From: Thermodesulfobacteriota bacterium
GTDB lineage: Bacteria; Desulfobacterota; Binatia; UBA9968; JAJDTQ01
Assembly (NCBI GenBank): GCA_965116635.1
Contig: OZ220710.1
Coordinates: 2,335,467 to 2,399,466 of the forward strand
DNA: 64,000 nt
Direction: 5' to 3'
Within the stretch, counting starts at the first letter, position 1; each line of letters begins with the position of its first letter. A model generated the notes under the pieces. The model saw only the letters and a list, made by a program, of their open reading frames with translations. It did not search any database and was not told the DNA's origin. Position numbers and translations under genes: made by a program. Shown here piece by piece: positions 19,512 through 64,000 of the stretch.

Positions 19512-19720
19512 TGTCAATCGTCCCGTGACGCCCATCCAGGGGCCGTCGGAGGCTCTTTCGGCGTGTGGAGATGGGTCAAAATTTCATGGCGTTTTTTCGT
19601 TGCTTGGAGCCGCCCAAGTCTGATAGGTACTTAACTCTTTTATAACTTTGGCGTGATCGCGGCATGTGCCACGACGGACCACGGTCCACGCGGCTACGGC
19701 GGGTAACGCCCGGAACACGG

Positions 19721-22255
19721 ATGACCGGTATGATGTACCACACCAAAACCCTTTGCCTTCTGGTGGCACTGTTCATGTCCCTCGCCTCATGCGTCTCCAT
19801 CGAGGAACACGAGGAACTGAACCGCGAGAAACAACGCGTAGAGGCGGACAATACCACTCTGACGCAGGACCTTCAGCGCCGAGGACGCGAGGTTACCACC
19901 CTCGAAGCGAGAGTCGCGGAACTGACGCAGGACGTGACCCGGTCCGAGGGCAGGCTCGAACAGAGGGGACAGGAACTCGCGGACGCGCAACGACAGATCA
20001 ACGAGCTGACGGCATCCCTGGCCCAGGTCCGGCAGGAGTTGAACACCGCCGTCACCGAACGAAGCAACACCGTGAACCGCTACCAGCGGAGAGTGGCGGA
20101 TTTGACGGCCGAACGGGACAACACCCTCAAGACCGTCGACGACTATGCCGCGCAACTCGACGAAAAAGCGGCGGCAGTACAGGATCTGGACGCCAGAGTT
20201 CGGGAATTGGCCCGTCTCAGGGACTCCCTGGTGCAGCAGAACGCCCTTCTGGCGACCGCCAAGGCCGATCTCGAAGAAAACTTCGCCGCGCTTGTACGCA
20301 ACCGGGATGAATTGACCGCGCAAGTGGAAGGGCTTGGGACCCAGGTGGCCCAGCAGGATCGGGTCATCAGCGGCATGAGCGCCCAAACCGATCGGCTGAA
20401 CGCGGTGAAGCAGTCGCTGGAAGCGGAAGTCACCAACCAGAAGGCCAGCATGGCACAGTTGCGGCAGCAAGTGTCGGAAGTGACACGCTCACTGGAACAG
20501 ACCCGCGCCGACAAGGACGACGCCCTGGCCAACCTCGCCGCAAAGGAAGAGGAAGCCGGCGAAAAACTCGCCTCCCTGACCGCCGCCCATGAGCAGGCCG
20601 TCGAACAACACCGGCGGCAACTGGCCCTGACCACCCGCTCGCTGAACCAGACCCGCGCCGACAAGGACGAGGCCCTGGCCAACCTCGCCGCAAAGGAAAA
20701 AGAAGCCGCCGAGAAACTGGCGTCCCTTACGTCCCTTGCCGCCGCCCATGAACAGGCCGTCCAAAAGCTCCGGCAACAACTGGCTCAAACCACTCGCTCA
20801 CTGGAGCAGACCCGCGCCGACAAGGACGACGCCCTGGCCAACCTCGCCGCAAAGGAAAAAGAAGCCGGTGAGAAACTCGCCGCCCTTGCCGCCGATCATG
20901 AACAGGCCGTCACAGAGCTCCGGCAGCAACTCGGTCAGACCACTCGCGCCCTGAACCAGACCCGCGCCGATGAGGAAAAGGCCTTGGCCGACCTCGCCGC
21001 CAGGGAACGGGCGACCACCGCAAGCCTGATTTCTCTCACCACCTCCCACGAACAGGCCGTCAGCCAGTTGCGGCAACAATTGGCACAGGCCACGGCTTCC
21101 CTCGAACAAGTGCAGACGAAAAAGGACCAGGAAATCGCCGCCCTGACCGCCGATTCACAACGCCTTGCGAAACAGTTGGCGACGTTGAGGGCCGGCCATG
21201 AAGAAGCCACCGGACGACTGCGGCAGCAACTGGCCGAAGCGACACGGTCTCTCGAACGGACGCAGGCCGGGAAGGACCAGGCGCTCGCGGCCTTGACGGT
21301 GGTCCAAGGAGACCTCACGACACAATTGGGGCAACTGAAGTCCGCCGTCGAACAGGCTGTCGGAGAGTCGCAGAGACAACAGGCTCAAGCCGCCGTGGCG
21401 CAACTTGAACAACGCCTGGCGGAGGTGAATCGTTCGCTGGGACAGACCCGCGCCGAGAAGGAACAAGCCTTGGCCGACCTGGCTGCCAGGGAAAAGGAAG
21501 CGACCGAGAAGCTCACCTCGCTCACCACCGCCCACGAACAGGCCGCCGCGCAACTTCAGGGGCAACTGGATGAGACCAACCGCTCCCTCGAGCAGACCCG
21601 GGGCGAGAAAGCCAAAGCGGTAGCCGATGTCGCCGCCAGGGAAAAGGAAGCGGCCGAAAAACTCGCCGCCCTCACCGCCGCCCACGAACAGGCCGCCGCG
21701 CAGCTTCAGCGGCAACTGGACGAAACCAATCGCTCGCTCGAACAGACCCGCAGCGAAAAAGAACAGGCGATGGCCGATCTCACCGCCAAGGAAAAGGAAG
21801 CGGCAGACAAGATCGCCGCCCTCACCGCCGCCCACCAGCAGGCGGCCGCGCAGCTTCAACAGCAACTGGAAGATACCAACCGCTCGCTCGAACAGACCCG
21901 CACAGAGAAGCAGCAGGCCGTGACCGATCTGGCCGTCAAGGAAAAGGAGGCGGCAGACAAGATCGCTGCCCTCACCGCCACCCACAATCAGGCCGCCGCG
22001 CAGCTACGGCAGCAACTGGCGGAAACCAACCGCTCGCTCGAACAGACCCGCACAGAGAAGCAGGAAGCCGTTACCGCCCTGGGCGTCGACAAGCAGAAAC
22101 TCGCGCTGCAGATGACCAAGGCGGAGGCCGAGCGCGACGCCCTCAAGCAACAGATCGAGGGAAAACTCGTGCTGGAAACCTACTGGCAGTGGATCTTCGG
22201 CGCGGTCGTGGGCCTCGGAGCCATTGGTTGGGGTTCCAGGTGGTTCCGGTCGTAG
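19721..22255 (+). CDS. lipoprotein with ~10 tandem 50-aa coiled-coil repeats and C-terminal transmembrane anchor
   Basis: Signal peptide plus lipobox (LFMSLASC). The unit RSLEQTRADKDDALANLAAKEKEAGEKLASLTAAHEQAVEQHRRQLAQTT is repeated about 10 times. The C-terminus WQWIFGAVVGLGAIGWG is hydrophobic. Confidence 0.7.
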   Translation: MTGMMYHTKTLCLLVALFMSLASCVSIEEHEELNREKQRVEADNTTLTQDLQRRGREVTTLEARVAELTQDVTRSEGRLEQRGQELADAQRQINELTASLAQVRQELNTAVTERSNTVNRYQRRVADLTAERDNTLKTVDDYAAQLDEKAAAVQDLDARVRELARLRDSLVQQNALLATAKADLEENFAALVRNRDELTAQVEGLGTQVAQQDRVISGMSAQTDRLNAVKQSLEAEVTNQKASMAQLRQQVSEVTRSLEQTRADKDDALANLAAKEEEAGEKLASLTAAHEQAVEQHRRQLALTTRSLNQTRADKDEALANLAAKEKEAAEKLASLTSLAAAHEQAVQKLRQQLAQTTRSLEQTRADKDDALANLAAKEKEAGEKLAALAADHEQAVTELRQQLGQTTRALNQTRADEEKALADLAARERATTASLISLTTSHEQAVSQLRQQLAQATASLEQVQTKKDQEIAALTADSQRLAKQLATLRAGHEEATGRLRQQLAEATRSLERTQAGKDQALAALTVVQGDLTTQLGQLKSAVEQAVGESQRQQAQAAVAQLEQRLAEVNRSLGQTRAEKEQALADLAAREKEATEKLTSLTTAHEQAAAQLQGQLDETNRSLEQTRGEKAKAVADVAAREKEAAEKLAALTAAHEQAAAQLQRQLDETNRSLEQTRSEKEQAMADLTAKEKEAADKIAALTAAHQQAAAQLQQQLEDTNRSLEQTRTEKQQAVTDLAVKEKEAADKIAALTATHNQAAAQLRQQLAETNRSLEQTRTEKQEAVTALGVDKQKLALQMTKAEAERDALKQQIEGKLVLETYWQWIFGAVVGLGAIGWGSRWFRS
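20480..22080 (+). repeat. ~150-bp in-frame tandem DNA repeats (about 10-11 copies) inside the coiled-coil lipoprotein gene
   Basis: Repeated cgctc(g/a)ctggaacagacccgcgccgacaaggacgacgccctggccaacctcgccgcaaaggaa... units. Confidence 0.8.
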
Positions 22256-54810: not shown

Positions 54811-54822
54811 TCGGATATCGCG

Positions 54823-55227
54823 ATGCGCATCGACACGCTCGAAATAGACAACGCACTGCTGCGAAAGCAGTACCTCGAACAACACAAGACCCTCACCAGC
54901 GGGCAGATAAGAGAAGCATCCGGACTGAAAACCCGAAACCCCTCCGAACCCGCATCGCGCTGGAAGAGGCAAGGCAAGATCTTCGGCGTCCCTGTCGGAA
55001 GGGCCGATCACTATCCGGCGTTCCAGTTCAGGGACGGACGACCACGGCCCGAGATCGCCAGAGTTCTCGCCGCGCTCCCCGGATCCATGTCACCCTGGCA
55101 GATCGCCTTCTGGTTCACCTCCAAGAACGGGTGGATCGAAAACGACGCGGCGCCCCAGGACGCTTTGCATGATATCGGCGGCGTGCTCGCGGCCGCGGCC
55201 GATCTTGCATCCGACGACCTTGGTTGA
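54823..55227 (+). CDS. Xre/MbcA/ParS-type antitoxin (DUF2384-like) of a RES toxin-antitoxin pair
   Basis: 134 aa, immediately upstream (3-bp gap) of a RES-domain gene. The C-terminal SPWQIAFWFTSKNGWIENDAAPQDAL resembles the DUF2384 toxin-binding region. Confidence 0.6.
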   Translation: MRIDTLEIDNALLRKQYLEQHKTLTSGQIREASGLKTRNPSEPASRWKRQGKIFGVPVGRADHYPAFQFRDGRPRPEIARVLAALPGSMSPWQIAFWFTSKNGWIENDAAPQDALHDIGGVLAAAADLASDDLG

Positions 55228-55230
55228 TTC

Positions 55231-55833
55231 GTGGAGTTCTCCATTCCGGATCCTCCACGTCGGCTCTCGCCCATCCCTCCGCTCGAGGGGCTGCCAGCAG
55301 GCTCATGGTTGCACCGTATACATTGGGTTGCCTGGCGCAGCGCTCAGTTCAACACCGGTGACCGCGTGTCCCGCTTTGCACCCATCGTTGACTCGGAGGG
55401 CCGCCGTGTACCCGTGCTGTATGCCGGCCACACATTTGACGTCGCAGCCTACGAATCGCTGTTTCACGCCATCGGCCCGGGCCAGGAAATGTTGACCTGG
55501 CCGGCAAGCGGGCTCACCGGGCTCGCCCATTCAATCCTGGAAACCCGACGCGACCTTGACGTAGTTCCTCTGTTCCGACGGAACCTCATCGGATGGAATG
55601 TATCCGACCTTGAAATCATCAAGGCGCCAGCCAGATACTATCACCAGACCGCGCGATGGGCAGAGGCCGTCCACCGCTCCATCGCCGAAGCTGCCGGCAT
55701 GGTCTGGATCTCGAATCGCGAGGGTAGCGACCTCTCCGGCCCGGTGGTCGAGGCCGTACGGCAGGATGAGTTCTCACCCCTTGCCGACGTGCCGTCGAAT
55801 CAAATAGTGTTGGCGGCGCGACTGTGGATGTAG
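55231..55833 (+). CDS. RES domain toxin
   Basis: GTG start. Candidate R-E-S residues in SRFAP, VLYAGHTFDVAAYESLFH and VWISNRE, arranged as in RES toxins. Lies downstream of the antitoxin. Confidence 0.65.
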   Translation: MEFSIPDPPRRLSPIPPLEGLPAGSWLHRIHWVAWRSAQFNTGDRVSRFAPIVDSEGRRVPVLYAGHTFDVAAYESLFHAIGPGQEMLTWPASGLTGLAHSILETRRDLDVVPLFRRNLIGWNVSDLEIIKAPARYYHQTARWAEAVHRSIAEAAGMVWISNREGSDLSGPVVEAVRQDEFSPLADVPSNQIVLAARLWM

Positions 55834-56732
55834 TCACCAAAGCGCTGGAATGTCTCATCGACCGTATGGATTCCCTGGTCGAAAAGGCCATACCCGAAGA
55901 AGCTTGCGGTAGCGACGCGCACTTCGGCATTAGGACACTCCGGTAGAGTGTCGAGTACGTCGCGTAGTATCAAGCTGTCTGGATCGTGATTTGCCAACAC
56001 AAGCAATACGACTGGCGGTGCGTCGCTGAAACTGTCCAAGTCTTTGCCGCAGTCGATTAGGCCCAACTCCCGCTTCTGGTTAAAGACTTCCACCATATCT
56101 TCCTTGAGGTCCTTCACATTCCCGGGACGGCCAAGGAAGTTCTTCACGTCAGCGATGTGTGCGTGCAACCCGGCCTTGTCCTTCAACGCCGTGTCGCCGT
56201 ACTTCATTTCCATGATGACGAGCCGCCGATTGGCTGCTTGCTTGCGTACTTGCGTTCTCGATGGCCAGTGCACAGCGATGGCGTCGAACCTCGGCGTCGA
56301 AGACGCCCGCTGATACTCGATATCGCAAATGTAGTAGTCTGTTTTCCGGGCGGCCCGCCCGAAGTTGTTTTCCCGCAGAAGTACTTGTTGAACCTCGCGT
56401 TCATCGTTCCGTTTCTTGCCGAAGAACCGGTCAATCGCCTGTTTCAACGTGGCGGAAAACTCGATCCACTCGTCGACATCCATTCTTCGAAGAACCTGGG
56501 GCTCAGGGAATTGGGCCGAGTCTTTTTTCATAAAGTAGTTTTTGTCGAAGCGGATATCGTATCCATGAGAGAGTTGCCGGACCACCATCAGGTTACCGCC
56601 TCGGTAGTAGACATTGATGTAGCTCCCTCTCAACTCGAGACAAAGGCTCGGGTCCGCAATCACCTCACGCCTCAACCGCGCCAGAACTCCATCCTTCAAA
56701 TCGTTTCGAAACCTGTCGTTAATGGCACGCAT
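55800..56732 (-). CDS. uncharacterised protein with putative PD-(D/E)xK nuclease-like core (FDAIAV ... IMEMKYG)
   Basis: 310 aa, low GC, no family recognised. The D...E-x-K spacing is consistent with a restriction-endonuclease-like fold. Translationally coupled to the upstream MBL gene (18-nt gap, GGAGG). Confidence 0.45.
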   Translation of the reverse strand: MRAINDRFRNDLKDGVLARLRREVIADPSLCLELRGSYINVYYRGGNLMVVRQLSHGYDIRFDKNYFMKKDSAQFPEPQVLRRMDVDEWIEFSATLKQAIDRFFGKKRNDEREVQQVLLRENNFGRAARKTDYYICDIEYQRASSTPRFDAIAVHWPSRTQVRKQAANRRLVIMEMKYGDTALKDKAGLHAHIADVKNFLGRPGNVKDLKEDMVEVFNQKRELGLIDCGKDLDSFSDAPPVVLLVLANHDPDSLILRDVLDTLPECPNAEVRVATASFFGYGLFDQGIHTVDETFQRFGDYIHSRAANTI

Positions 56733-56750
56733 ATCCCTTGTTCCTCCGTT

Positions 56751-58004
56751 TCAAACTACCCACCATTCGCCGTCGTCTCTCTGGACGACATCATCAAACA
56801 ACTCCCCGAACCGACTCGTCTCGAAGGAATGGATCGGGACCAGTGTACCTGGCCCCAACGCGCCGGCAAACCGTGCCAAGTCGGCGACCGAGGCGTGACC
56901 GGACGTGTGAATCGTACGCCGGGGAACACCATGCTGTTCCAACCATTTCAGGACCCTCAACGAGCCCTTCTCTTTCAGATATCCCTCCCACATCGAGTAC
57001 GTGAACCCCGCTCCGTCGAGCACCGCATTGACACCGCGGTCGGTCATCGCCATTGGGCGGAACAACATAACTGCCCGGCTGGCCAAGTCGGGAAGAGCTT
57101 CCGGGAAGACCCGATTCGCCTTGTGCCGTCCGAGGTCATCGAACAGGCCGTTCTCCTTGATGAACACACGCTGCCGTTGCGGAATGTAGACCTTCACCTC
57201 GTCCCAGTTAGATTGCGGGATGCTGTCCCGGCCCGTCGCCTCCAGCACCACCGCGGTGTAGAGGTCAATGAGCAGCACCCGGGCGGTCCGTTTGGCGGCG
57301 CGGAAGATCGTGACCAGGCGGTCGATGTTCTGCGAGGAGGTCCAGACGAAGTGGAGGCCCTTGGTTTCCTTGAAGGCCTGCATGAACTCCGTCTCAAGGT
57401 CGTCCTCGGTAGCGAACCCTTCGTCTGCTCCCGTCCGACCGATGGTCGTTCCCTCCATCAAGAGGACGTCGATGTCCTTCGGCGGGCCGGCAACCATCGC
57501 TTCGAACAACTTCGACTTGCGGCCGTGGGCGCGGAAATCGCCGGAGTAGAACACCCGCTTGCCGTCCGCCTCGACCAGGAGATGGTAGGCATCGAACGCG
57601 CTGTGGTCTACCAGGTACGGCGTGACGCGAAACGGACCGATCTCGACGGGTGTCCGGTCGGCGATGAAGTTAGGGTCGGTGAAGGCAGTCCCGTTGGGAA
57701 CGTAAGCGCTTGCCGCCTTCATCACGTTGTGCGCACCCTGGCCGATGTAGACGGGAACCTCCGGGCGGACGTACCGGGCCAAGCCGTAGTGGTCCATGTG
57801 GGGATGCGAGATAAGCACACCGAGCAGGCTTTCCTCCGGCTCCCGGAAACCCGGAACCTGCGGCAGCAGGCTCTTGTGCCACTCCACGTCGTCCGGCGCG
57901 TCGAGCGGCAGGCCGACGTCCAGGGCGATACGCTTCCCTTGCGCCTCTATCTCGATACAGGTACCGCCGATTTCCTTCGTGCCTCGATGAATTCGAACTT
58001 TCAT
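56751..58004 (-). CDS. metallo-beta-lactamase fold, beta-CASP family nuclease
   Basis: HPHMDH is an HxHxDH motif. N-terminal KEIGGTCIEIEAQGKRIALDVG is a beta-CASP/RNase J-like strand. FYSGDFR (motif A Asp) and IHTSGHAS (motif B/C His). The start is uncertain (ATG 58004 vs upstream ATG 58082). Confidence 0.7.
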   Translation of the reverse strand: MKVRIHRGTKEIGGTCIEIEAQGKRIALDVGLPLDAPDDVEWHKSLLPQVPGFREPEESLLGVLISHPHMDHYGLARYVRPEVPVYIGQGAHNVMKAASAYVPNGTAFTDPNFIADRTPVEIGPFRVTPYLVDHSAFDAYHLLVEADGKRVFYSGDFRAHGRKSKLFEAMVAGPPKDIDVLLMEGTTIGRTGADEGFATEDDLETEFMQAFKETKGLHFVWTSSQNIDRLVTIFRAAKRTARVLLIDLYTAVVLEATGRDSIPQSNWDEVKVYIPQRQRVFIKENGLFDDLGRHKANRVFPEALPDLASRAVMLFRPMAMTDRGVNAVLDGAGFTYSMWEGYLKEKGSLRVLKWLEQHGVPRRTIHTSGHASVADLARFAGALGPGTLVPIHSFETSRFGELFDDVVQRDDGEWWVV

Positions 58005-58112
58005 ATCGTCAAATGCCTTCGCGACATGGCTCCCGTCCACCAAATTCAGTCCAATTCCTCCTCGGCCAGTGCCGCGCCCCATCGGTTTCCGGCAACGTGA
58101 ACCCCTTTCCAT

Positions 58113-58350
58113 ACACTATTCAGAGGGCGAGAAGTATATATCTTTGTGCCTAGCGAAAATTAATCGAGTATTTTAGTACGATTCTCTCATGGTGGAAGTC
58201 GGAGGAACCGCGACCCGCTGACCGGTCACGGTAGACGCGCAACCCTGTAGCCGCCCTTGCAGCAGCGCGATGTTGCTGGTGGGATTCGTCCAGAAGGGCT
58301 TGGCGAGAGGTTTCGGGGGTGGCCTGAAGCAGGCCGCTGGCGAGAACGCT
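58113..58350 (-). promoter_or_regulatory. AT-rich leader/promoter region upstream of the MBL-nuclease operon
   Basis: About 40% GC (tatatatctttgtgcctagcgaaaattaatcgagtattttagtacg) in a ~67% GC genome. No precise -35/-10 assigned. Confidence 0.3.
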
Positions 58351-58680
58351 TCAGTCCAAGGCGAGTGCAAAGCGCACTGCGGTGGCCACACTCTCCATTT
58401 TTTCAGCCGGGAGACTCGTGAGCAGCGAGCCGACTCTGCCGCGTGGAACCGTCTGCAAATGATCGCAGTTCACCGCGCATTCACGAGCCATTCCATCGTC
58501 GGCCGACAGTACGACCTCGCTCGGGATACCGCGAACGGTCGTGGTGACGGGAACGACCGTCACTTCGCTCAGGCTCGGAATGATCGAGTCACGTGTGAGA
58601 ACGAGCACAGGTCTGCGCCTGTCCGGGCGACCGAATCGGTACCAGCGGATCTCACCGCGACGCATCACTCCTCTTTCCAC
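58351..58680 (-). CDS. PemK/MazF family endoribonuclease toxin
   Basis: RRGEIRWYRFGRPDRRRPVLVLTRDSI...VTVVPVTTT...SEVVL matches the MazF/PemK pattern. Confidence 0.8.
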   Translation of the reverse strand: MERGVMRRGEIRWYRFGRPDRRRPVLVLTRDSIIPSLSEVTVVPVTTTVRGIPSEVVLSADDGMARECAVNCDHLQTVPRGRVGSLLTSLPAEKMESVATAVRFALALD

Positions 58681-58913
58681 GCATCGTCACCCCATGCGTG
58701 ATCCCTTTCCGGGATGTCGAACTCCTGTTTGGCGGGCGGGTTCTTTCGGTATCCGGCTCTGTGGCGCTCTTCCAATTCCGCTTCGTCGTAGCGCTCCAGG
58801 GCGGCTCTCAACACTTTGCGTGTAAACCCTGAGCGCGTGGTACCGAGACGCTTCGCCCGTCGGTCGACCCTTTCCACGAGATCGGCATCCATCGTTAGCT
58901 GTATGACTTTCAT
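58665..58913 (-). CDS. ribbon-helix-helix (CopG/MazE-like) antitoxin
   Basis: TMDADLVERVDRRAKRLGTTRSGFTRKVLRAAL is an RHH motif. Overlaps the PemK gene by 16 bp. Confidence 0.7.
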   Translation of the reverse strand: MKVIQLTMDADLVERVDRRAKRLGTTRSGFTRKVLRAALERYDEAELEERHRAGYRKNPPAKQEFDIPERDHAWGDDAWKEE

Positions 58914-58974
58914 AGCTATACACTAACCTATTCTGTGCTCTATACAAGTCTCTAGGACGTGGTCGTGTCGACCG

Positions 58975-59508
58975 TCAGAAGTAGCGCACGCGGGCCAAGA
59001 GTTCGGCGTCCGGCCGTCCGGCGGCCGTCGCCGGCCATCCGGTCAGATCCGGGCGCGGCCCAAAGAGCGCGAAAACCTTGCCGTCTCTGGCTGGCCCGGA
59101 CTGTAGCCCGCCGTCGACCCGCCAGCCATGCGCGCCGCCTGAACGCAGGGCAGCCGACGGCGCCGTGAGCCCGGACGCGCCTCCGTTTCGAAAGCGGTCG
59201 GCTTCCCGTTGGCAATCGAGCCAGCTCTCCCGACCGCCGGTCAGCGTCGCTGGCGCCAACTCCGGCTCCTCCCCCGGCTCGTCACCGATGTCCACCGCCC
59301 ATAGTGCCCGGCGAACCGTCAGCAGGTCCTCCGGATCGACGATTTCCTCGTGACGCAGGAACTCGGCCCACGCCCCGTCCGGCGTATCCGTGAAATAGTG
59401 TGTCAACTGGCCCGGGGCGTTCCATCGACCCGCGGGTTGAGACGAGTCTCCCCGGAGGAAAGGGAAACGGGGATCGGCGTGACAAAAGGCGATCATGTCA
59501 CCGGCCAC
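58975..59508 (-). CDS. RES domain toxin (second copy)
   Basis: GRWNAPG, YFTDTPDGAWAEFLRHE and LTAPSAA provide the R-E-S positions. Overlaps the upstream antitoxin by 16 bp. Confidence 0.7.
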   Translation of the reverse strand: MAGDMIAFCHADPRFPFLRGDSSQPAGRWNAPGQLTHYFTDTPDGAWAEFLRHEEIVDPEDLLTVRRALWAVDIGDEPGEEPELAPATLTGGRESWLDCQREADRFRNGGASGLTAPSAALRSGGAHGWRVDGGLQSGPARDGKVFALFGPRPDLTGWPATAAGRPDAELLARVRYF

Positions 59509-60113
59509 GGTCCAAGGGCTGCCGCCAACTCCCGCACTTGCCGCGGCCCGTCGTCATCCGGTCCCCAATCCCCGTGCAGCAACTGAGCGGGTGCATACCC
59601 GTTGAGCAACTGACGTGGACGGTGGAACCAACGGCGGACGCCGACGTCGTTGTACGCACCCGCGAGATCACCCACGACGAAAGCCAGGAAGTGGAGACGG
59701 GCGGCGACCGCATCGGGCGTCGTCCGGGCGCCGGCGAAATAGCGACGGGCGCTTGACACCGAGATCCTCATGAGTTCGGCCATGGACTCCAGTCCCAGGA
59801 TACGTTCGACAGCCCGCCACTCCCGCTCGGGAACAGGCGATTCGGTGAGCGCCTCGCTGATCTTCTTGAGCAGAGCGGACAACCTCTCCGGCCCGGTGGT
59901 CGAGGCCGTACGAAGCTCCGCCGTGAGCCCCCGGCCGATCCCGGCATCCGTCAAACCTCTCTCCAATCCCTCCATGGCGGTGTCGTCCAGGCGCACGATT
60001 TCGGCGGGCAGCAAGCCCATGGCATCCGCCCGGCTGAGCGCCTCCATAGCTGCCGGCATCACCTTCGGGTCGTCGAACGGACTGCGGATGGATCCTGATT
60101 GGATATTTAACAC
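59493..60113 (-). CDS. Xre/MbcA/ParS-type antitoxin (DUF2384-like), second copy
   Basis: C-terminal AARLHFLAFVVGDLAGAYNDVGVRRWFHRPRQLLNGYAPAQLL is typical of the DUF2384 toxin-binding domain. Confidence 0.65.
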   Translation of the reverse strand: MLNIQSGSIRSPFDDPKVMPAAMEALSRADAMGLLPAEIVRLDDTAMEGLERGLTDAGIGRGLTAELRTASTTGPERLSALLKKISEALTESPVPEREWRAVERILGLESMAELMRISVSSARRYFAGARTTPDAVAARLHFLAFVVGDLAGAYNDVGVRRWFHRPRQLLNGYAPAQLLHGDWGPDDDGPRQVRELAAALGPWPVT

Positions 60114-60220
60114 AATCCGAAACCTATCCGGTCAATGGAGGCCTGTCAACTCCTCCGGAACTTGGGGCAAATTCCGTGCCGGAGCGTCGTGTCGCACGAT
60201 TGATTCAACGATACACGGGG

Positions 60221-61324
60221 TCAAACCGCGACTCTTCGCTCGCCCTCCACGGCCAGCCCGTAGAACTCCTCCGCGTTCCGGTGCAGCACGCCGTGCTTGT
60301 CGTCGTCGGTGAGGCGGTCGTTCTCGACGATCTCGCGGATCTCGGCCTTGCAGTAGTCGTTGTTGACCTCGTGGGGAAAGTCGCTGGAAAACATGAAGGG
60401 TTTGTTGCCCAAGGCTTCGATGGCGTTGTGCAGAGTGGGCTCGGTGCCTTCGCAGCCGACGAAGATGCGCCCCTTTTCGGCGTGGCGTCGGATGTAGTCA
60501 CTGACTTGCTCGCCCGGCTTGAGCTGGATGAACTCGCCGCGGGGGTCGTACTGGACGTGGGTTTCCCAGCCCCGGTCGAAGCGTTCGAGGCAGGTGTGAA
60601 TCCAGGCTACGCCGCCTTCCATGAAGCCCACGCGCATGTGGGGATAGCGGTCGAACAGACCGTTGAACACGAAGCCGGCGAAGCACACCATCTGGCCAAA
60701 GGGGTGGCCCAGGCCGTTGATGGGGGCGTAGGGCGTCAGGTAATCCATGCCCAGCCCCTCGTGGGCGCCGCCGTGGACGCCGATGCTGCAGCCCAGCCGG
60801 TCGGCCTCGGCGTACACCGGCCAGTATTCCTTGGAACCCAGGTGCCCCTTGAGGCCCATGGAGGGCAGCATGGCGCCGCAGAAGCCCAGCTCCTCGACGA
60901 TGCGGCGCAGTTCCTTCACCGCCTCCGCTGGCTCCTGCATGGGGATCAGGCCGAGCCCCTGAAACTTCGCGCTCGCCTTCAGGTAGGTGTCGTGGAACCA
61001 GTTGTTGTAGGCTTGGCAGATCTCGATGGCGAAGTCGCCGTTGATCACCTTGCCCACCGCCAGCCCACCGGTGGGGTAGAGGACCGCGCGCTCGATGCCC
61101 ACGTCCTCCATGAACTCCAGCCAGCCCGTCGGGCCCACCTGCCGGAACGCGCCGGGGACGAGGTCGTAGAGAGTGGCGCTGTGGAGGTGATCCAGGGGCG
61201 GGAAGAGCCGTCCCTTGCCCCGGAAACGGTCGTGGTAGGCGGCCGGCATGTACTCCAGCAACGCCTCCCAGTCCTCCATGACGTGACCGTCGCCGTCGAT
61301 GACGTCCATCCGATCCCAGGCCAT
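60221..61324 (-). CDS. amidohydrolase-2 family metal-dependent hydrolase/decarboxylase
   Basis: N-terminus MAWDRMDVIDGDGHVMED. Confidence 0.85.
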   Translation of the reverse strand: MAWDRMDVIDGDGHVMEDWEALLEYMPAAYHDRFRGKGRLFPPLDHLHSATLYDLVPGAFRQVGPTGWLEFMEDVGIERAVLYPTGGLAVGKVINGDFAIEICQAYNNWFHDTYLKASAKFQGLGLIPMQEPAEAVKELRRIVEELGFCGAMLPSMGLKGHLGSKEYWPVYAEADRLGCSIGVHGGAHEGLGMDYLTPYAPINGLGHPFGQMVCFAGFVFNGLFDRYPHMRVGFMEGGVAWIHTCLERFDRGWETHVQYDPRGEFIQLKPGEQVSDYIRRHAEKGRIFVGCEGTEPTLHNAIEALGNKPFMFSSDFPHEVNNDYCKAEIREIVENDRLTDDDKHGVLHRNAEEFYGLAVEGERRVAV

Positions 61325-61341
61325 GTTCGTCCCTCCCCTTT

Positions 61342-62448
61342 CTACAGTCCGTAGAGCCGGCGCGCGTTGTCGCTCAGGATCTTGAGTTTGACGTCCTCGG
61401 AGATGTCGGTGCGCTCCCGGAATACCTTGATGGCGTCCACGTCACTGGAAACGTCGGTGTGCCCGTAGTCAGTGCCGATGACCAGGCCGTCCTCGCCGCT
61501 CTCCTGGACAATATACGCCAGATCGTCACTGTTCTCGCACGTGACGAACATGCCGAACTCCGCCATGGGGTTGTCCGGCCACTCCCGCCCCAGCACACGG
61601 CAGCGGGCGCGAACCTCGCGCAGCATCCAGGGCACCCACTGGGAACTGGCCTCGATGAAACCCCAGCGCAAGTCCGGAAACACCTGCGGTATCTCGCTCA
61701 GCAGAATGTCGCTGAATGCGCCCACGGTAGGCACTCGGAACCGGTGGAAGTTGGCTGCATTGGACACCGGATGGTTGCAGAGGTCGTTGAACCACGGGCT
61801 ACCGTTGGCGATGTGGATGGCGATGGACATGTCCAGGCGCGTGGCTTCCTCATAGATGGGATAGAAATACGGGTCCACCAGGAGCCGGTTGCCCTCATAC
61901 GGCCGCATCAGCACCGCGCAGGCGCCGTGCTCCTTGCCGAAGCGGATCTGGTCCAGGGCATCGGCAATGCTGAGGGTGGGCGCCAGGCACGACCACCTGA
62001 GCCTGCCCTCGGACTGGGACCAGATGTCCCCAAGCCACCGGTTCCAGCTTCCGCACAGCGCCACCTCCACCGGCGCACGGTCCGTCACCTGCTCGATGAA
62101 CATGGTGTTGTGCAGCACCTGGACGTCGACGTCGGTGTCGTCCATGTGCTCCAGCCGAAGCCCCACGTTGCCGAGTTCCATGGACTCGTCCGCGTCGGCG
62201 AACTTGCGGCCCACCCGCCGCTCACGCTGCCGCAGCGCTTCTTCCGAAAACGCCGGAAAGCGGAAGCCCCGCACCTTTCCGTCCACCACCCAGAACTGCT
62301 GCTTGACGCCCGCCTCCTCCGGTGACGCCAGCGGCACCGGACGGTACTGGCGATCGGAGGGATCGAGGTAGTCCCAGGTGCGTTCGCATTCCACCACGTG
62401 GGCGTCCGAGTCCACGATCAAGGGCTTGCCGTTGGCGTCTCCACTCAT
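61342..62448 (-). CDS. amidohydrolase-2 family protein, tandem paralog B
   Basis: MSGDANGKPLIVDSDAHVVECE. AAGGAG lies 8 nt upstream of the ATG at 62448. Confidence 0.85.
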   Translation of the reverse strand: MSGDANGKPLIVDSDAHVVECERTWDYLDPSDRQYRPVPLASPEEAGVKQQFWVVDGKVRGFRFPAFSEEALRQRERRVGRKFADADESMELGNVGLRLEHMDDTDVDVQVLHNTMFIEQVTDRAPVEVALCGSWNRWLGDIWSQSEGRLRWSCLAPTLSIADALDQIRFGKEHGACAVLMRPYEGNRLLVDPYFYPIYEEATRLDMSIAIHIANGSPWFNDLCNHPVSNAANFHRFRVPTVGAFSDILLSEIPQVFPDLRWGFIEASSQWVPWMLREVRARCRVLGREWPDNPMAEFGMFVTCENSDDLAYIVQESGEDGLVIGTDYGHTDVSSDVDAIKVFRERTDISEDVKLKILSDNARRLYGL

Positions 62449-62519
62449 GTCCTTGCTCCTTTGCCCAACTTCCCGAGCCGAACAGGGGCTCAAGGCACGG
62501 GCGGGTTTGACCCCCGGCG

Positions 62520-63626
62520 CTACAGCGCGTAGAGCCGGCGCGCGTTGTCACTCAGAATCTTTCGCTTCACGTCCTCGGCCAGATCGGTCCGATCCCGGAA
62601 GATCCGGATGGCATCGAGGTCGCTGGACGTATCCGTGTGGCCGTAGTCGGTGCCGATGACCAGGCCGTCCTCGCCGGTTTCCTCCACGATGTACGGCAGG
62701 TCGTCGGTGTTCTCGCAGGTCACGAACATCCGGAACGCATCCATGGGGTTGTCCGGCCATTCCCGGCCCCTGGTCCTGAACCGGTTCCGGGTCTCGTGAA
62801 GGATCCACGGCAGCCACTGGGCGCTGGCCTCGATGAATCCCCAGCGCAGATTCGGGAACAGCTCCGGCACCTCGCTGAAGAGCACGTGGGCGAAGCCGCC
62901 CACGGTGGGGATGCGGAAGCGGTGGAAAAAGGCTCCCAGCCGCACCGGATGGCGGTAGAGGTCGTTGAGCCAGGCGCTGCCGTTGGCGATGTGCACGGCA
63001 ATGGCCAGGTCCAGGCGGCTGGCCTCCTCGTAGATGGGATAGAAATACGGGTCCACCAGCGGGCGGTTGCCCTCGACGGGCCGCATCAGCACCGCACAGG
63101 CGCCGTGCTCCCGGGAGAAGCGGATCTGGTCCAGCGCGTCCGGCATGCTCAGGGTAGGCGCAAGACACGACCAGCGCAGCCGTCCGTCCGACTGGGACCA
63201 GATATCCGCGAGCCACCGGTTCCAGCTCCCGCACAGCGCCACCTCCACCGGAGCGCGCTCCGTCACCTCCTCGATGAACATGGTGTTGTGCAGCACCTGA
63301 ACGTCCACCCCGGTGGCGTCCATGTGCTCCAGCCGGAGCCCCACGTTGCCCAACTCCCGGGCCTCCCTGGCCTCGGCGAACCTGCGGCCCACCTGCTCCT
63401 GCCGGCGCCGCAACTCCTCCTCCGAGAACGCCGGGAAGCGATTGCCCCGCACCTTGCCGTCCACGAGCCAGAACTGCAGCGTGACGCCTCCGTCTTCGGG
63501 CGCCGCCAGCGGCACCGGGCGGTACTGCCGTTCCGAAGGGTCGAGGTAGTCCCAGGTACGCTCGCATTCCACTACGTGGGCGTCCGCGTCGACGATCAAG
63601 AGCTTTCCGTTGGCGTCTCCGCTCAT
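62520..63626 (-). CDS. amidohydrolase-2 family protein, tandem paralog C (~80% aa identity to B)
   Basis: MSGDANGKLLIVDADAHVVECE. The track ORF runs on to 63938 through non-coding spacer; ATG at 63626 follows AAGGAG. Confidence 0.85.
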   Translation of the reverse strand: MSGDANGKLLIVDADAHVVECERTWDYLDPSERQYRPVPLAAPEDGGVTLQFWLVDGKVRGNRFPAFSEEELRRRQEQVGRRFAEAREARELGNVGLRLEHMDATGVDVQVLHNTMFIEEVTERAPVEVALCGSWNRWLADIWSQSDGRLRWSCLAPTLSMPDALDQIRFSREHGACAVLMRPVEGNRPLVDPYFYPIYEEASRLDLAIAVHIANGSAWLNDLYRHPVRLGAFFHRFRIPTVGGFAHVLFSEVPELFPNLRWGFIEASAQWLPWILHETRNRFRTRGREWPDNPMDAFRMFVTCENTDDLPYIVEETGEDGLVIGTDYGHTDTSSDLDAIRIFRDRTDLAEDVKRKILSDNARRLYAL

Positions 63627-63697
63627 GGCCTTGCTCCTTTTCTCGCCTTCCCGAGCCGGGCAGCCGTCCTGGCACGGGCGGGTTTGAAACCCGCCCC

Positions 63698-64000
63698 CTA
63701 CAGCCCGTAGAGCCGGCGCGCGTTGTCGCTCAGGATCTTGCGCTTGACGTCCTCGGACAGGTCGGCGCGTTCCCGGAAGACCTTGATGGCGTCCACGTCG
63801 CTGGAGGTGTCGGTGTGTCCGTAGTCGGTGCCGATGACCAAGCCGTCCTCGCCGGTCTCCTGCACGATGTACGGCAGGTCGTCGGTATTCTCGCAGGTCA
63901 CGAACATCCGGAAGTGGTCCATGGGGTTGTCCGGCCACTCACGGCCCAGGGTCCGGAAACGGTTGCCGACTTCGTGAAGGATCCAGGGCAGCCACTGGGA
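63698..64000 (-). CDS. amidohydrolase-2 family protein, tandem paralog D, 5'-truncated by window end
   Basis: The C-terminal 100 aa are near-identical to paralogs B and C. The frame stays open to the window end. Confidence 0.8.
   Translation of the reverse strand, partial: SQWLPWILHEVGNRFRTLGREWPDNPMDHFRMFVTCENTDDLPYIVQETGEDGLVIGTDYGHTDTSSDVDAIKVFRERADLSEDVKRKILSDNARRLYGL

What the first reader, a model, noticed from the sequence alone, without database searches (positions are those of the whole stretch)
55800..58350. Two-gene operon of a beta-CASP MBL-fold nuclease and a PD-(D/E)xK-like protein in a low-GC, toxin-antitoxin-rich islet: candidate undescribed (defence?) module
A beta-CASP metallo-beta-lactamase protein (HPHMDH, FYSGDFR, IHTSGHAS) sits immediately upstream of an uncharacterised 310-aa protein. 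Only 18 nt separate them, and a GGAGG lies in the gap, so they are translationally coupled. The second protein's second half carries an FDAIAV ... IMEMKYG arrangement compatible with a PD-(D/E)xK nuclease core, and I cannot assign it to any family I know. The pair lies in the only markedly AT-richer stretch of the window (~45-50% GC against ~67% elsewhere). It is flanked by two RES-Xre modules and a MazF-RHH module, and TA-dense low-GC islets of this kind are where anti-phage systems cluster. I know of no named defence system built from a beta-CASP nuclease plus a PDDEXK-like partner. The alternative is a housekeeping RNA/DNA-processing nuclease (TTHA0252/RNase J-like beta-CASP enzymes exist at this size) that was captured on an islet.
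Basis: partly seen in the sequence, partly recalled or inferred. Interest (0 to 1): 0.8.

Follow-up and report, generated by a model that had tools for sequence, protein, structure and literature searches.

The report
Two-nuclease cassette: candidate new defence module
A conserved RNase J-like metallo-nuclease gene sits next to a fast-evolving restriction-enzyme-like nuclease gene as a small mobile cassette in a toxin-antitoxin-rich hotspot, and this pair recurs across many bacterial phyla but matches no described defence system, so it is a good untested candidate for a new anti-phage or anti-plasmid module.

Summary
The two genes are real. They lie on the minus strand: a beta-CASP MBL hydrolase (56751-58004, 417 aa) and an unclassified 310-aa protein, "P2" (55800-56732). 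An 18-nt spacer carrying GGAGGA separates them. The stated GC of 45-50% is wrong. P2 is 54% GC and the MBL gene 62%, against 65% for the window.

P2 models confidently as an N-terminal alpha/beta domain plus a PD-(D/E)xK nuclease core. E111, D137, E139, D150, E175 and K177 are invariant. It matches no Pfam, NCBIfam, PHROG or PADLOC family.

The pairing is conserved. 52 of 80 P2 loci from many phyla carry the MBL gene, nearly all adjacent, in either gene order, and the two distance matrices correlate (r = 0.70).

The MBL is the stable partner. In a sister genome an MBL gene 82% identical in DNA carries a remotely homologous partner, with DNA homology ending 9 nt before the MBL stop codon. In other relatives the MBL-P2 block sits at a different position in the same hotspot.

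Contexts include TA modules, Wadjet, WYL regulators, transposases and prophage ends.

Best reading: an undescribed two-nuclease defence-type module. Defence activity itself is untested.

The parts
56751..58004 (-). Beta-CASP metallo-beta-lactamase-fold hydrolase, 417 aa. Alternative starts are GTG 58040 and ATG 58112.
   Evidence: Pfam Lactamase_B_2 at 3.6e-12, with a weak RMMBL hit. NCBIfam RNase J family scores 57.8 bits, far below the cutoff of 400. The closest solved sequence is 2AZ4 (EF2904), followed by RNase J entries. H67, H69, D71, H72, H134, D156, E184, H366, H370 and H392 are invariant in 42 diverse homologues.
56733..56750 (-). 18-nt intergenic spacer with a GGAGGA Shine-Dalgarno sequence 9 nt before the P2 start codon
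   Evidence: Read directly from the sequence. In other loci the two genes are 3-60 nt apart or overlap.
55800..56732 (-). P2: 310-aa two-domain protein of an uncurated family that partners the MBL
   Evidence: No Pfam, NCBIfam, PHROG or PADLOC hit. The family has 693 homologues and 1771 50%-identity cluster representatives. The AF2 model has pLDDT 89.7 and pTM 0.89.
56358..56732 (-). P2 N-terminal alpha/beta domain (aa 1-125). R35, Y42, Y43, R44, G45, Y66 and K97 are invariant; G46 is near-invariant (41/42).
55983..56345 (-). P2 PD-(D/E)xK nuclease core (aa ~130-250). Catalytic candidates are D137, E139, D150, E175 and K177, plus E111 in the preceding helix.
58005..58350 (-). Upstream non-coding region (57% GC), the probable promoter region of the pair. 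DNA homology to sister contigs ends at 58010.
   Evidence: Composition. blastn block boundary at 58010. No consensus sigma-70 site was found on this strand. The promoter role is inferred.
55764..58010 (-). Discrete MBL-P2 cassette block, 87-88% nt identical to sister contigs but located at a different position within their islet
   Evidence: blastn of the window against L175-L178 and L081, with gene maps.
55730..55760 (+). Copy 1 of a perfect 31-nt direct repeat, lying at the left junction of the cassette
   Evidence: the repeat finder family D3. Zero matches expected by chance. The flanks are unrelated. It coincides with the blastn breakpoint at 55735/55764.
59882..59912 (+). Copy 2 of the 31-nt direct repeat, inside the 206-aa ORF (antisense to it)
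54811..60220 (.). Variable islet between the conserved MFS/HpaB genes and the Amidohydro_2 array. It holds three putative TA-type modules (two RES-containing pairs and MazF-RHH) plus the MBL-P2 cassette.
   Evidence: Pfam. GC3 is 0.66-0.79 here against 0.86-0.93 in the flanks. Islet content differs among sister contigs.

Best explanation
The pair is a horizontally mobile two-gene nuclease module of the defence-island type. It most likely acts against invading nucleic acid from phages or plasmids.

The MBL protein is the conserved catalytic component. It is an RNase J/CPSF73-like beta-CASP nuclease with a complete metal site and a His at motif C.

P2 is the rapidly diversifying component. It has an N-terminal alpha/beta domain, which I infer to be the recognition or interaction domain, fused to an intact PD-(D/E)xK endonuclease core.

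Proposed mechanism (inferred, not shown): P2 recognises and cuts or nicks a foreign or aberrant nucleic acid. The beta-CASP enzyme then degrades it from the new end or site, or degrades cellular RNA or DNA in an abortive-infection mode.

Specificity would be renewed by swapping the partner gene as a cassette at the gene boundary.

Shown here: both folds and both catalytic motifs; conserved adjacency in either gene order; correlated divergence; partner replacement next to a conserved MBL; relocation of the cassette within a variable TA-rich hotspot.

Inferred: the defence role, the division of labour, the substrates and any physical complex.
For: Conserved pairing:
- Of the best 80 P2 loci from many phyla, 52 carry the MBL gene within the locus and 46 have it on the same strand within 200 nt. 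The order is P2-then-MBL in 43 loci (one with the MBL on the opposite strand) and MBL-then-P2 in 9.
- The MBL and P2 distance matrices correlate, r = 0.70, Mantel p <= 5e-4.
- Catalytic residues of both proteins are invariant in 42 pairs.

P2 identity:
- PD-(D/E)xK fold.

Partner divergence and swapping:
- Within the MBL-first class, mean pairwise distance is 0.405 for the MBL and 0.535 for P2. Protein hits that appear to share contigs are 75-86% (MBL) against 53-57% (P2) identical to the window proteins.
- Across 91 MBL-centred loci, 68 have an adjacent same-strand ORF of at least 180 aa. 39 of those 68 carry a PD-(D/E)xK-like signature, seen in 5 of 123 control neighbours.
- Fusion forms exist: L110, 697 aa, and the P0076 read-through.

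Mobility and context:
- The cassette block lies at a different islet position in sister contigs, which also keep a 307-nt MBL remnant.
- Contexts include TA modules, Wadjet JetABCD, WYL/WCX regulators, SLFN and PDDEXK genes, transposases, BrxA/B, Mrr and type IV REase hits.
- In viral contigs the module lies alongside recombinase, integrase and phage structural genes.
- Truncated copies occur.
Against: - There is no experimental evidence of defence.
- Neighbourhood enrichment for defence genes was not quantified against a genomic background. Some loci sit among housekeeping genes.
- About 23 of 75 assessable P2 loci lack an MBL gene within 8 kb. Most MBL partners could not be classified by sequence.
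- No self/non-self discrimination component, such as a methyltransferase, is evident.
- The hhalign link between the two partner families is only moderate (66%).
- No interaction between the two proteins was tested.
Confidence: 0.55

Rival explanations
1. Toxin-antitoxin-like or addiction module. One nuclease, for example the MBL, is a toxin held in check by the other protein, and the pair persists selfishly in a TA-rich islet without providing immunity.
For: The pair sits among three putative TA-type modules in a hotspot where TA content turns over. It is a compact two-gene operon. Degraded copies occur in several loci.
Against: - Both proteins keep complete catalytic motifs across phyla. That is not expected for an antitoxin.
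- Both are large (417 and 310 aa).
- The two core proteins have no Pfam HTH or autoregulator hit; one longer P2-family member (P0328) carries an HTH_8 match.
- Gene order is not fixed.
- P2 also pairs with a different nuclease, REase-ARP/PDDEXK_13, in L001-L004 and L008.
- Many defence systems behave like TA systems anyway, so this rival overlaps the main model.
Confidence: 0.12
2. Cargo of mobile elements serving the element itself, for example host nucleic-acid degradation, anti-defence, or replication or processing nucleases of prophages and integrative elements, rather than host immunity.
For: MBL homologues occur on 13 IMG/VR contigs, at least three of them with P2-type partners. Serine recombinases, integrases, terminase, portal and tail genes lie nearby. 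MBL homologues occur on 24 plasmids. A perfect 31-nt direct repeat brackets a 4.15-kb block containing the cassette.
Against: - Most loci are chromosomal without phage genes.
- P2 has no match in 50,697 phage genomes or 72,556 plasmids.
- No significant P2-like fold was found in BFVD viral structures.
- Prophage ends and plasmids are also typical carriers of defence cargo.
Confidence: 0.15
3. Housekeeping or stress-related nucleic-acid processing or repair pair, an RNase J-like enzyme working with a NucS-like endonuclease, that was captured on an islet.
Against: - The RNase J model scores 57.8 bits against a cutoff of 400, and the protein is only 417 aa against about 550-705 aa for the solved RNase J chains.
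- Distribution across phyla is patchy.
- GC3 is foreign.
- Position and partner differ between sister genomes.
- Copies are frequently truncated, including the one in the housekeeping-context locus.
- No Pfam NucS match.
Confidence: 0.08

Closest known systems
RNase J / CPSF73-type beta-CASP nucleases, including the uncharacterised structure 2AZ4 (EF2904)
   Same: MBL motifs HxHxDH, H and D, plus beta-CASP motifs A (E184), B (H366/H370) and C (H392). The sequence matches RNase J models over residues 8-248 and matches 2AZ4 over nearly its full length.
   Different: It scores far below the RNase J cutoffs and is much shorter than the solved RNase J chains (417 aa against about 550-705 aa). It is accessory, mobile and paired with a PD-(D/E)xK protein.
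Type VII CRISPR-Cas effector nuclease Cas14 (beta-CASP)
   Same: A beta-CASP nuclease used as the cutting component of an immune system and recruited by a separate target-recognition component (literature: PMC13069675 and PMC12669027, listed).
   Different: The NCBIfam Cas14 model scores only 23.7 bits against a cutoff of 800. No Cas Pfam domain was hit in the eight islet proteins scanned; CRISPR arrays were not searched for specifically. The partner here is a protein nuclease, not a crRNA-guided complex.
Protease-gated MBL pro-nuclease modules (HamMAB, Avs2/AVAST-trypsin-MBL, Lamassu variants, Canu)
   Same: An MBL-fold nuclease encoded next to a co-evolving partner gene in antiviral loci, with modular reuse (PMC12799240; PMC13069673).
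   Different: Those nucleases are described as resembling DNA-uptake MBL enzymes and require a trypsin or caspase protease. No protease Pfam domain was hit in the islet proteins scanned, and the MBL here is beta-CASP/RNase J-like. Direct homology to those nucleases was not tested.
PD-(D/E)xK defence and repair nucleases: Shedu SduA, Hachiman HamA, Upx, NucS, type II and IIS restriction enzymes
Systems with a conserved core plus swappable effector or sensor, such as Lamassu LmuB with variable LmuA (own knowledge)
   Same: One conserved component is paired with highly variable, exchangeable partners. One partner ORF gave a weak LmuA hit at 6.8e-5.
   Different: The conserved component here is a nuclease, not an SMC ATPase. 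No ATPase was identified as a regular part of the module.

Membership tests
Beta-CASP subfamily of the MBL superfamily | MBL motifs 1-4 (D, HxHxDH, H, D) | tested here: met
   H67-x-H69-x-D71-H72, H134 and D156 are invariant in 22- and 42-sequence alignments. D29 is also invariant.
Beta-CASP subfamily of the MBL superfamily | Beta-CASP motifs A (acidic), B (His) and C (His or Val), on an inserted domain between motif 4 and the C-terminus | tested here: met
   E184 (LMEGT), H366/H370 (IHTSGHA) and H392 (VPIHS) are invariant. The sequence aligns to RNase J models and to 2AZ4 across the insert. The fold of the insert was not modelled here.
RNase J (housekeeping ribonuclease) | Score above the curated family cutoff, with the full RNase J length | tested here: not met
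   TIGR00649 scores 57.8 bits against 400, and NF047419 scores 41.6 against 820. The protein is 417 aa against about 550-705 aa for the solved RNase J chains.
RNase J (housekeeping ribonuclease) | Conserved chromosomal context, as for a core gene | tested here: not met
   It lies in a variable islet. Its position and partner differ among sister contigs. It is also found on plasmids and prophage-like contigs.
PD-(D/E)xK nuclease superfamily | Restriction-endonuclease-like alpha-beta-beta-beta-alpha-beta core | tested here: met
PD-(D/E)xK nuclease superfamily | Catalytic D...(D/E)xK triad on strands 2 and 3 | tested here: met
   D150 (RFD) and E175-M-K177 are invariant in 42 sequences, as are D137, E139 and E111.
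Shedu (SduA, DUF4263) | Match to the DUF4263 or PADLOC SduA models | tested here: not met
Hachiman (HamA + HamB) | HamA (DUF1837) nuclease adjacent to a HamB SF2 helicase | tested here: not met
NucS/EndoMS | Sequence membership in the NucS family | tested here: not met
Protease-MBL pro-nuclease modules (HamMAB, Avs2, Canu) | Adjacent or fused trypsin or caspase protease that activates the MBL nuclease | tested here: not met
   No protease Pfam domain was hit in the eight islet proteins scanned. The definition is taken from PMC12799240.
Type VII CRISPR-Cas (Cas14) | Cas14 model match, with Cas5/Cas7 genes and a CRISPR array | tested here: not met
   NF045584 scores 23.7 bits against 800. No Cas Pfam domain was hit in the islet proteins scanned. 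CRISPR arrays were not searched for specifically.
Anti-phage defence system (generic) | Protection of a host against phage or plasmid when expressed | not testable with these tools
   Only contextual evidence is available.
Anti-phage defence system (generic) | Statistical enrichment next to known defence genes | tested here: inconclusive
   Among the two nearest ORFs on each side in 31 loci (123 ORFs in all), there were hits to WYL, PsyrTA, BrxA/B, MADS, type IV REase, Mrr and PDC models, but also housekeeping genes. No background control was possible.

The most novel reading that the evidence does not exclude
The MBL-P2 pair is the founding example of a widespread, stand-alone innate immune system. 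A hypervariable NucS/Shedu-like PD-(D/E)xK sensor-nuclease licenses an RNase J-like beta-CASP nuclease. This would be a protein-guided counterpart of the Cas14 effector of type VII CRISPR. Specificity would be renewed by precise cassette exchange of the partner gene at the MBL stop codon.
Probability: 0.2. Interest if true: 0.8.

Novelty: new variant of a known kind. Interest (0 to 1): 0.6.

Why it matters
If the pair is a defence system, it would add a family present in many phyla: 1771 P2 clusters at 50% identity and thousands of MBL homologues. It would bring beta-CASP nucleases into innate bacterial immunity; the only immune system with a beta-CASP nuclease that my literature searches turned up is type VII CRISPR. 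It would also offer a tractable example of specificity turnover by exact gene-boundary cassette swapping next to a conserved enzyme. It would assign a likely role to the structural-genomics orphan 2AZ4-like proteins. Finally, it gives two clear sets of catalytic residues to mutate.

Tried and rejected
- Pfam, NCBIfam, PHROGs and PADLOC on P2 gave no family. The only signal was weak UPF0102 and PDDEXK_9 hits at E ~0.03 in 7-8 of 34 members.
- The P2 profile against PDB sequences gave nothing meaningful.
- Foldseek against the AFDB50 library was unavailable. Foldseek against BFVD viral structures gave no hit at E <= 0.001.
- P2 by tblastn against the plasmid and phage collections gave no match.
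- Longer P2-family proteins (437-624 aa) gave no informative extra Pfam domains, apart from one HTH_8 match.
- The exact window P2 sequence is not in the contig index.
- The sigma-70 promoter scan found nothing upstream of the operon on the correct strand.
- Literature searches for beta-CASP or MBL together with phage defence found only type VII CRISPR, protease-MBL modules and 6A-MBL, none with this architecture.
- I first read the L081 partner as a non-homologous replacement, because BLASTP showed no similarity. I rejected that reading after profile and structure comparison showed a shared architecture.
- I rejected RNase J orthology, Cas14, Shedu, Hachiman and NucS membership. See the membership tests.
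- The 31-nt repeat was not found in related loci, even with up to 3 mismatches in L176. Its role remains unexplained.
Full report
**Observation.** The two ORFs exist on the minus strand. The first is an MBL-fold gene ending at 56751. Its ORF opens at 58112, but homologues are 415-417 aa and start at MKVRIH, so the likely start is 58004; a GTG at 58040 is an alternative. The second is a 310-aa ORF, "P2", at 55800-56732. They are separated by 18 nt, with GGAGGA 9 nt before the P2 ATG. All quoted peptide motifs are present. The flanking Xre-like ORF plus RES, MazF-RHH, and RES plus 206-aa ORF modules are supported by Pfam, although the Xre-like match is below cutoff and the 206-aa ORF has no hit. 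P2 is 53.8% GC, the MBL gene 61.7%, the islet 60.8% and the window 65.4%. GC3 shows the contrast best: 0.66-0.79 for islet genes and 0.86-0.93 for the core flanks.

**The MBL protein.** Pfam gives Lactamase_B_2 and Lactamase_B plus a weak RMMBL match. NCBIfam places it nearest the RNase J family, at 57.8 bits against a cutoff of 400. It also gives negligible scores for aCPSF1 and Cas14. The closest solved sequence is the uncharacterised 2AZ4 (EF2904). RNase J entries follow. In alignments of 22 and 42 homologues at roughly 29-88% identity to the window protein, the MBL motifs and the beta-CASP motifs are invariant. The MBL motifs are H67xH69xD71H72, H134 and D156. The beta-CASP motifs are A (E184), B (H366/H370) and C (H392). 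It is therefore a predicted active beta-CASP enzyme, but not an RNase J orthologue. By my recollection of the original beta-CASP description, His at motif C marks the RNA-acting branch. The substrate is nonetheless untested.

**Conserved pairing.** A scan of one genome per species found 194 P2 loci in many lineages, including Binatia, Pseudomonadota, Myxococcota, Planctomycetota, Acidobacteriota, Bacillota, Bacteroidota, Omnitrophota, Peribacteria and Actinomycetota. Of the best 80 loci, 52 contain an MBL homologue and 46 have it on the same strand within 200 nt. The order is P2-then-MBL in 43 (one with the MBL on the opposite strand) and MBL-then-P2 in 9, as in the window. Gaps range from -16 to about 60 nt in most pairs. 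Five of the 28 MBL-less loci are cut by contig ends. Across 42 tight pairs the two distance matrices correlate, r = 0.70 and Mantel p <= 5e-4. One read-through P2-MBL protein (P0076) exists. So does one 697-aa MBL with a C-terminal extension carrying a D...FIELK motif (L110).

**The MBL is the stable partner and P2 the variable one.** Within the MBL-first class, mean pairwise distance is 0.405 for the MBL and 0.535 for P2. MBL-centred scans of metagenomes and viral contigs gave 91 loci, and 68 of them have an adjacent same-strand ORF of at least 180 aa. By profile methods only about a quarter to a third of those adjacent ORFs belong to the P2 family or to a second family, "A5". The rest are small clusters or singletons. 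A PD-(D/E)xK-like sequence signature is found in 22 of 24 classified partners and 18 of 58 other adjacent ORFs. It is found in only 5 of 123 control neighbours, with 2.9 +/- 1.5 of 58 expected from shuffles. On a per-locus basis, 39 of 68 loci have it. A few partners hit named nuclease or defence-linked domains: PDDEXK_4, YhcG_C, NOV_C, pP_pnuc_1/2, GmrSD_N and SLFN_AlbA_2. In five Binatia and Pseudomonadales MAG loci P2 is paired instead with a REase-ARP/PDDEXK_13 protein. Some loci, including human-gut metagenome contigs, add a Metallophos gene downstream of the MBL.

**Context.** Besides the three putative TA-type modules here, examples elsewhere are as follows:
- A Latescibacterota locus carries a WYL/WCX regulator, MBL-P2, SLFN_AlbA_2, PDDEXK_4, an AAA ATPase and transposases.
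- An 8.7-Mb genome has the pair between Wadjet JetABCD plus PIN/MazE and an NTP_transf_2 gene.
- One alphaproteobacterial locus sits among housekeeping genes, with an MBL whose match begins at residue 68 and which therefore lacks the N-terminal part.

The two nearest ORFs on each side in 31 loci gave hits to WYL, PsyrTA, BrxA/B, MADS, type IV REase, Mrr, nSTAND3 and PDC models. They also gave phage tail genes and core metabolic genes. I could not compute a background, so this is suggestive only. In IMG/VR contigs the module lies alongside serine recombinase, integrase and phage structural genes. MBL homologues also occur on 24 plasmids, for example a Burkholderia megaplasmid with an adjacent hypothetical gene.

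**Mechanism.** Two features are shown: both enzymes keep intact active sites, and they are inherited together. Two further observations argue that the partner carries specificity: it diverges faster than the MBL, and it is exchanged next to a conserved MBL. I infer that P2 recognises and cuts a foreign or aberrant nucleic acid through its N-terminal domain and PD-(D/E)xK core. I also infer that the beta-CASP enzyme then degrades the target, or cellular nucleic acid in an abortive mode. Rivals are a TA-like addiction pair, cargo serving mobile elements, and a housekeeping processing or repair pair. Each is weighed in the structured fields.

**Comparison with known systems.** The MBL is a beta-CASP family member but fails RNase J and Cas14 membership. 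P2 is a PD-(D/E)xK superfamily member but fails Shedu, Hachiman and NucS membership. Known MBL defence nucleases (HamMAB, Avs2-trypsin-MBL, Lamassu variants, Canu) are protease-gated enzymes described as resembling DNA-uptake nucleases, and no protease is encoded here. Of 54 diverse members of the MBL and partner families, only two gave weak single PADLOC hits. Five literature searches found no description of this pairing.

**Verdict.** The finding holds up apart from the GC numbers. It is a real, widespread and mobile two-nuclease module with an undescribed architecture. Its defence role is plausible and testable, but unproven.

Noticed in passing
window 55730-55760 and 59882-59912: A perfect 31-nt direct repeat (ACCTCTCCGGCCCGGTGGTCGAGGCCGTACG) with unrelated flanks. 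It brackets a 4.15-kb block containing P2, the MBL gene, MazF-RHH and RES. Copy 1 lies exactly at the cassette's blastn breakpoint. It may be a recombination scar or an att-like site. It is absent from related contigs.
   Followed up: partly
L175:9065-9370, L176:12196-12501, L177:5045-5350, L178:6663-6968: Sister contigs that carry an intact MBL-P2 cassette also keep a 307-nt fragment, 85% identical to window 57166-57472 (mid-MBL gene), at the islet position where the window has its cassette. This suggests duplication or relocation followed by decay.
   Followed up: partly
L001:7009-7965, L002:7029-7991, L003:6832-7965, L004:6950-7966, L008:7013-7984: In Binatia and Pseudomonadales MAGs the closest genome-scan P2 homologues (54-58% identity) are paired with a REase-ARP/PDDEXK_13 nuclease directly upstream instead of an MBL gene. 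P2 can therefore partner a different nuclease.
   Followed up: partly
L139:7266-7889, L147:7254-7820, L158:1660-2253, L159:2248-2817: In some metagenome loci (L139 is from human gut) a calcineurin-like metallophosphoesterase (Metallophos) gene immediately follows the MBL gene. This gives a possible three-gene variant: partner, MBL, Metallophos.
   Followed up: no
L110:5986-8079: A 697-aa ORF in which a full MBL domain is followed by a 283-aa extension with a D...FIELK (PD-(D/E)xK-like) motif. It is an apparent MBL-nuclease fusion, but could be an assembly or frameshift artefact.
   Followed up: partly
window 60221-63938 (and L081:3000-7719, L176:111-5714): A tandem array of paralogous Amidohydro_2 genes, roughly 82-92% nt identical to the arrays in relatives, borders the islet. 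Relatives carry four or five copies.
   Followed up: no
window 55231-55833 (+): The RES-domain ORF converges on P2 and overlaps its 3' end by 34 nt. Its C-terminal tail, beyond the Pfam RES match (residues 28-163), contains copy 1 of the 31-nt repeat, so the tail may be a fortuitous extension created by the junction.
   Followed up: no
window 19664-22255 (+): A single 863-aa ORF coincides with an unusually strong positive AT skew (0.39-0.45) at 20-22 kb. It was not characterised.
   Followed up: no
L184:1-5879: A complete Wadjet (JetA/B/C/D) system plus a PIN/MazE pair lies within about 3 kb upstream of an MBL-P2 pair in an 8.7-Mb genome. This is a clear defence-island context.
   Followed up: no
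L183:8950-9981; also L063, L051, L068: Several loci carry truncated MBL genes next to intact P2. In L183 the match begins at residue 68, and L063 keeps only residues 306-413. This indicates frequent decay of the module.
   Followed up: no
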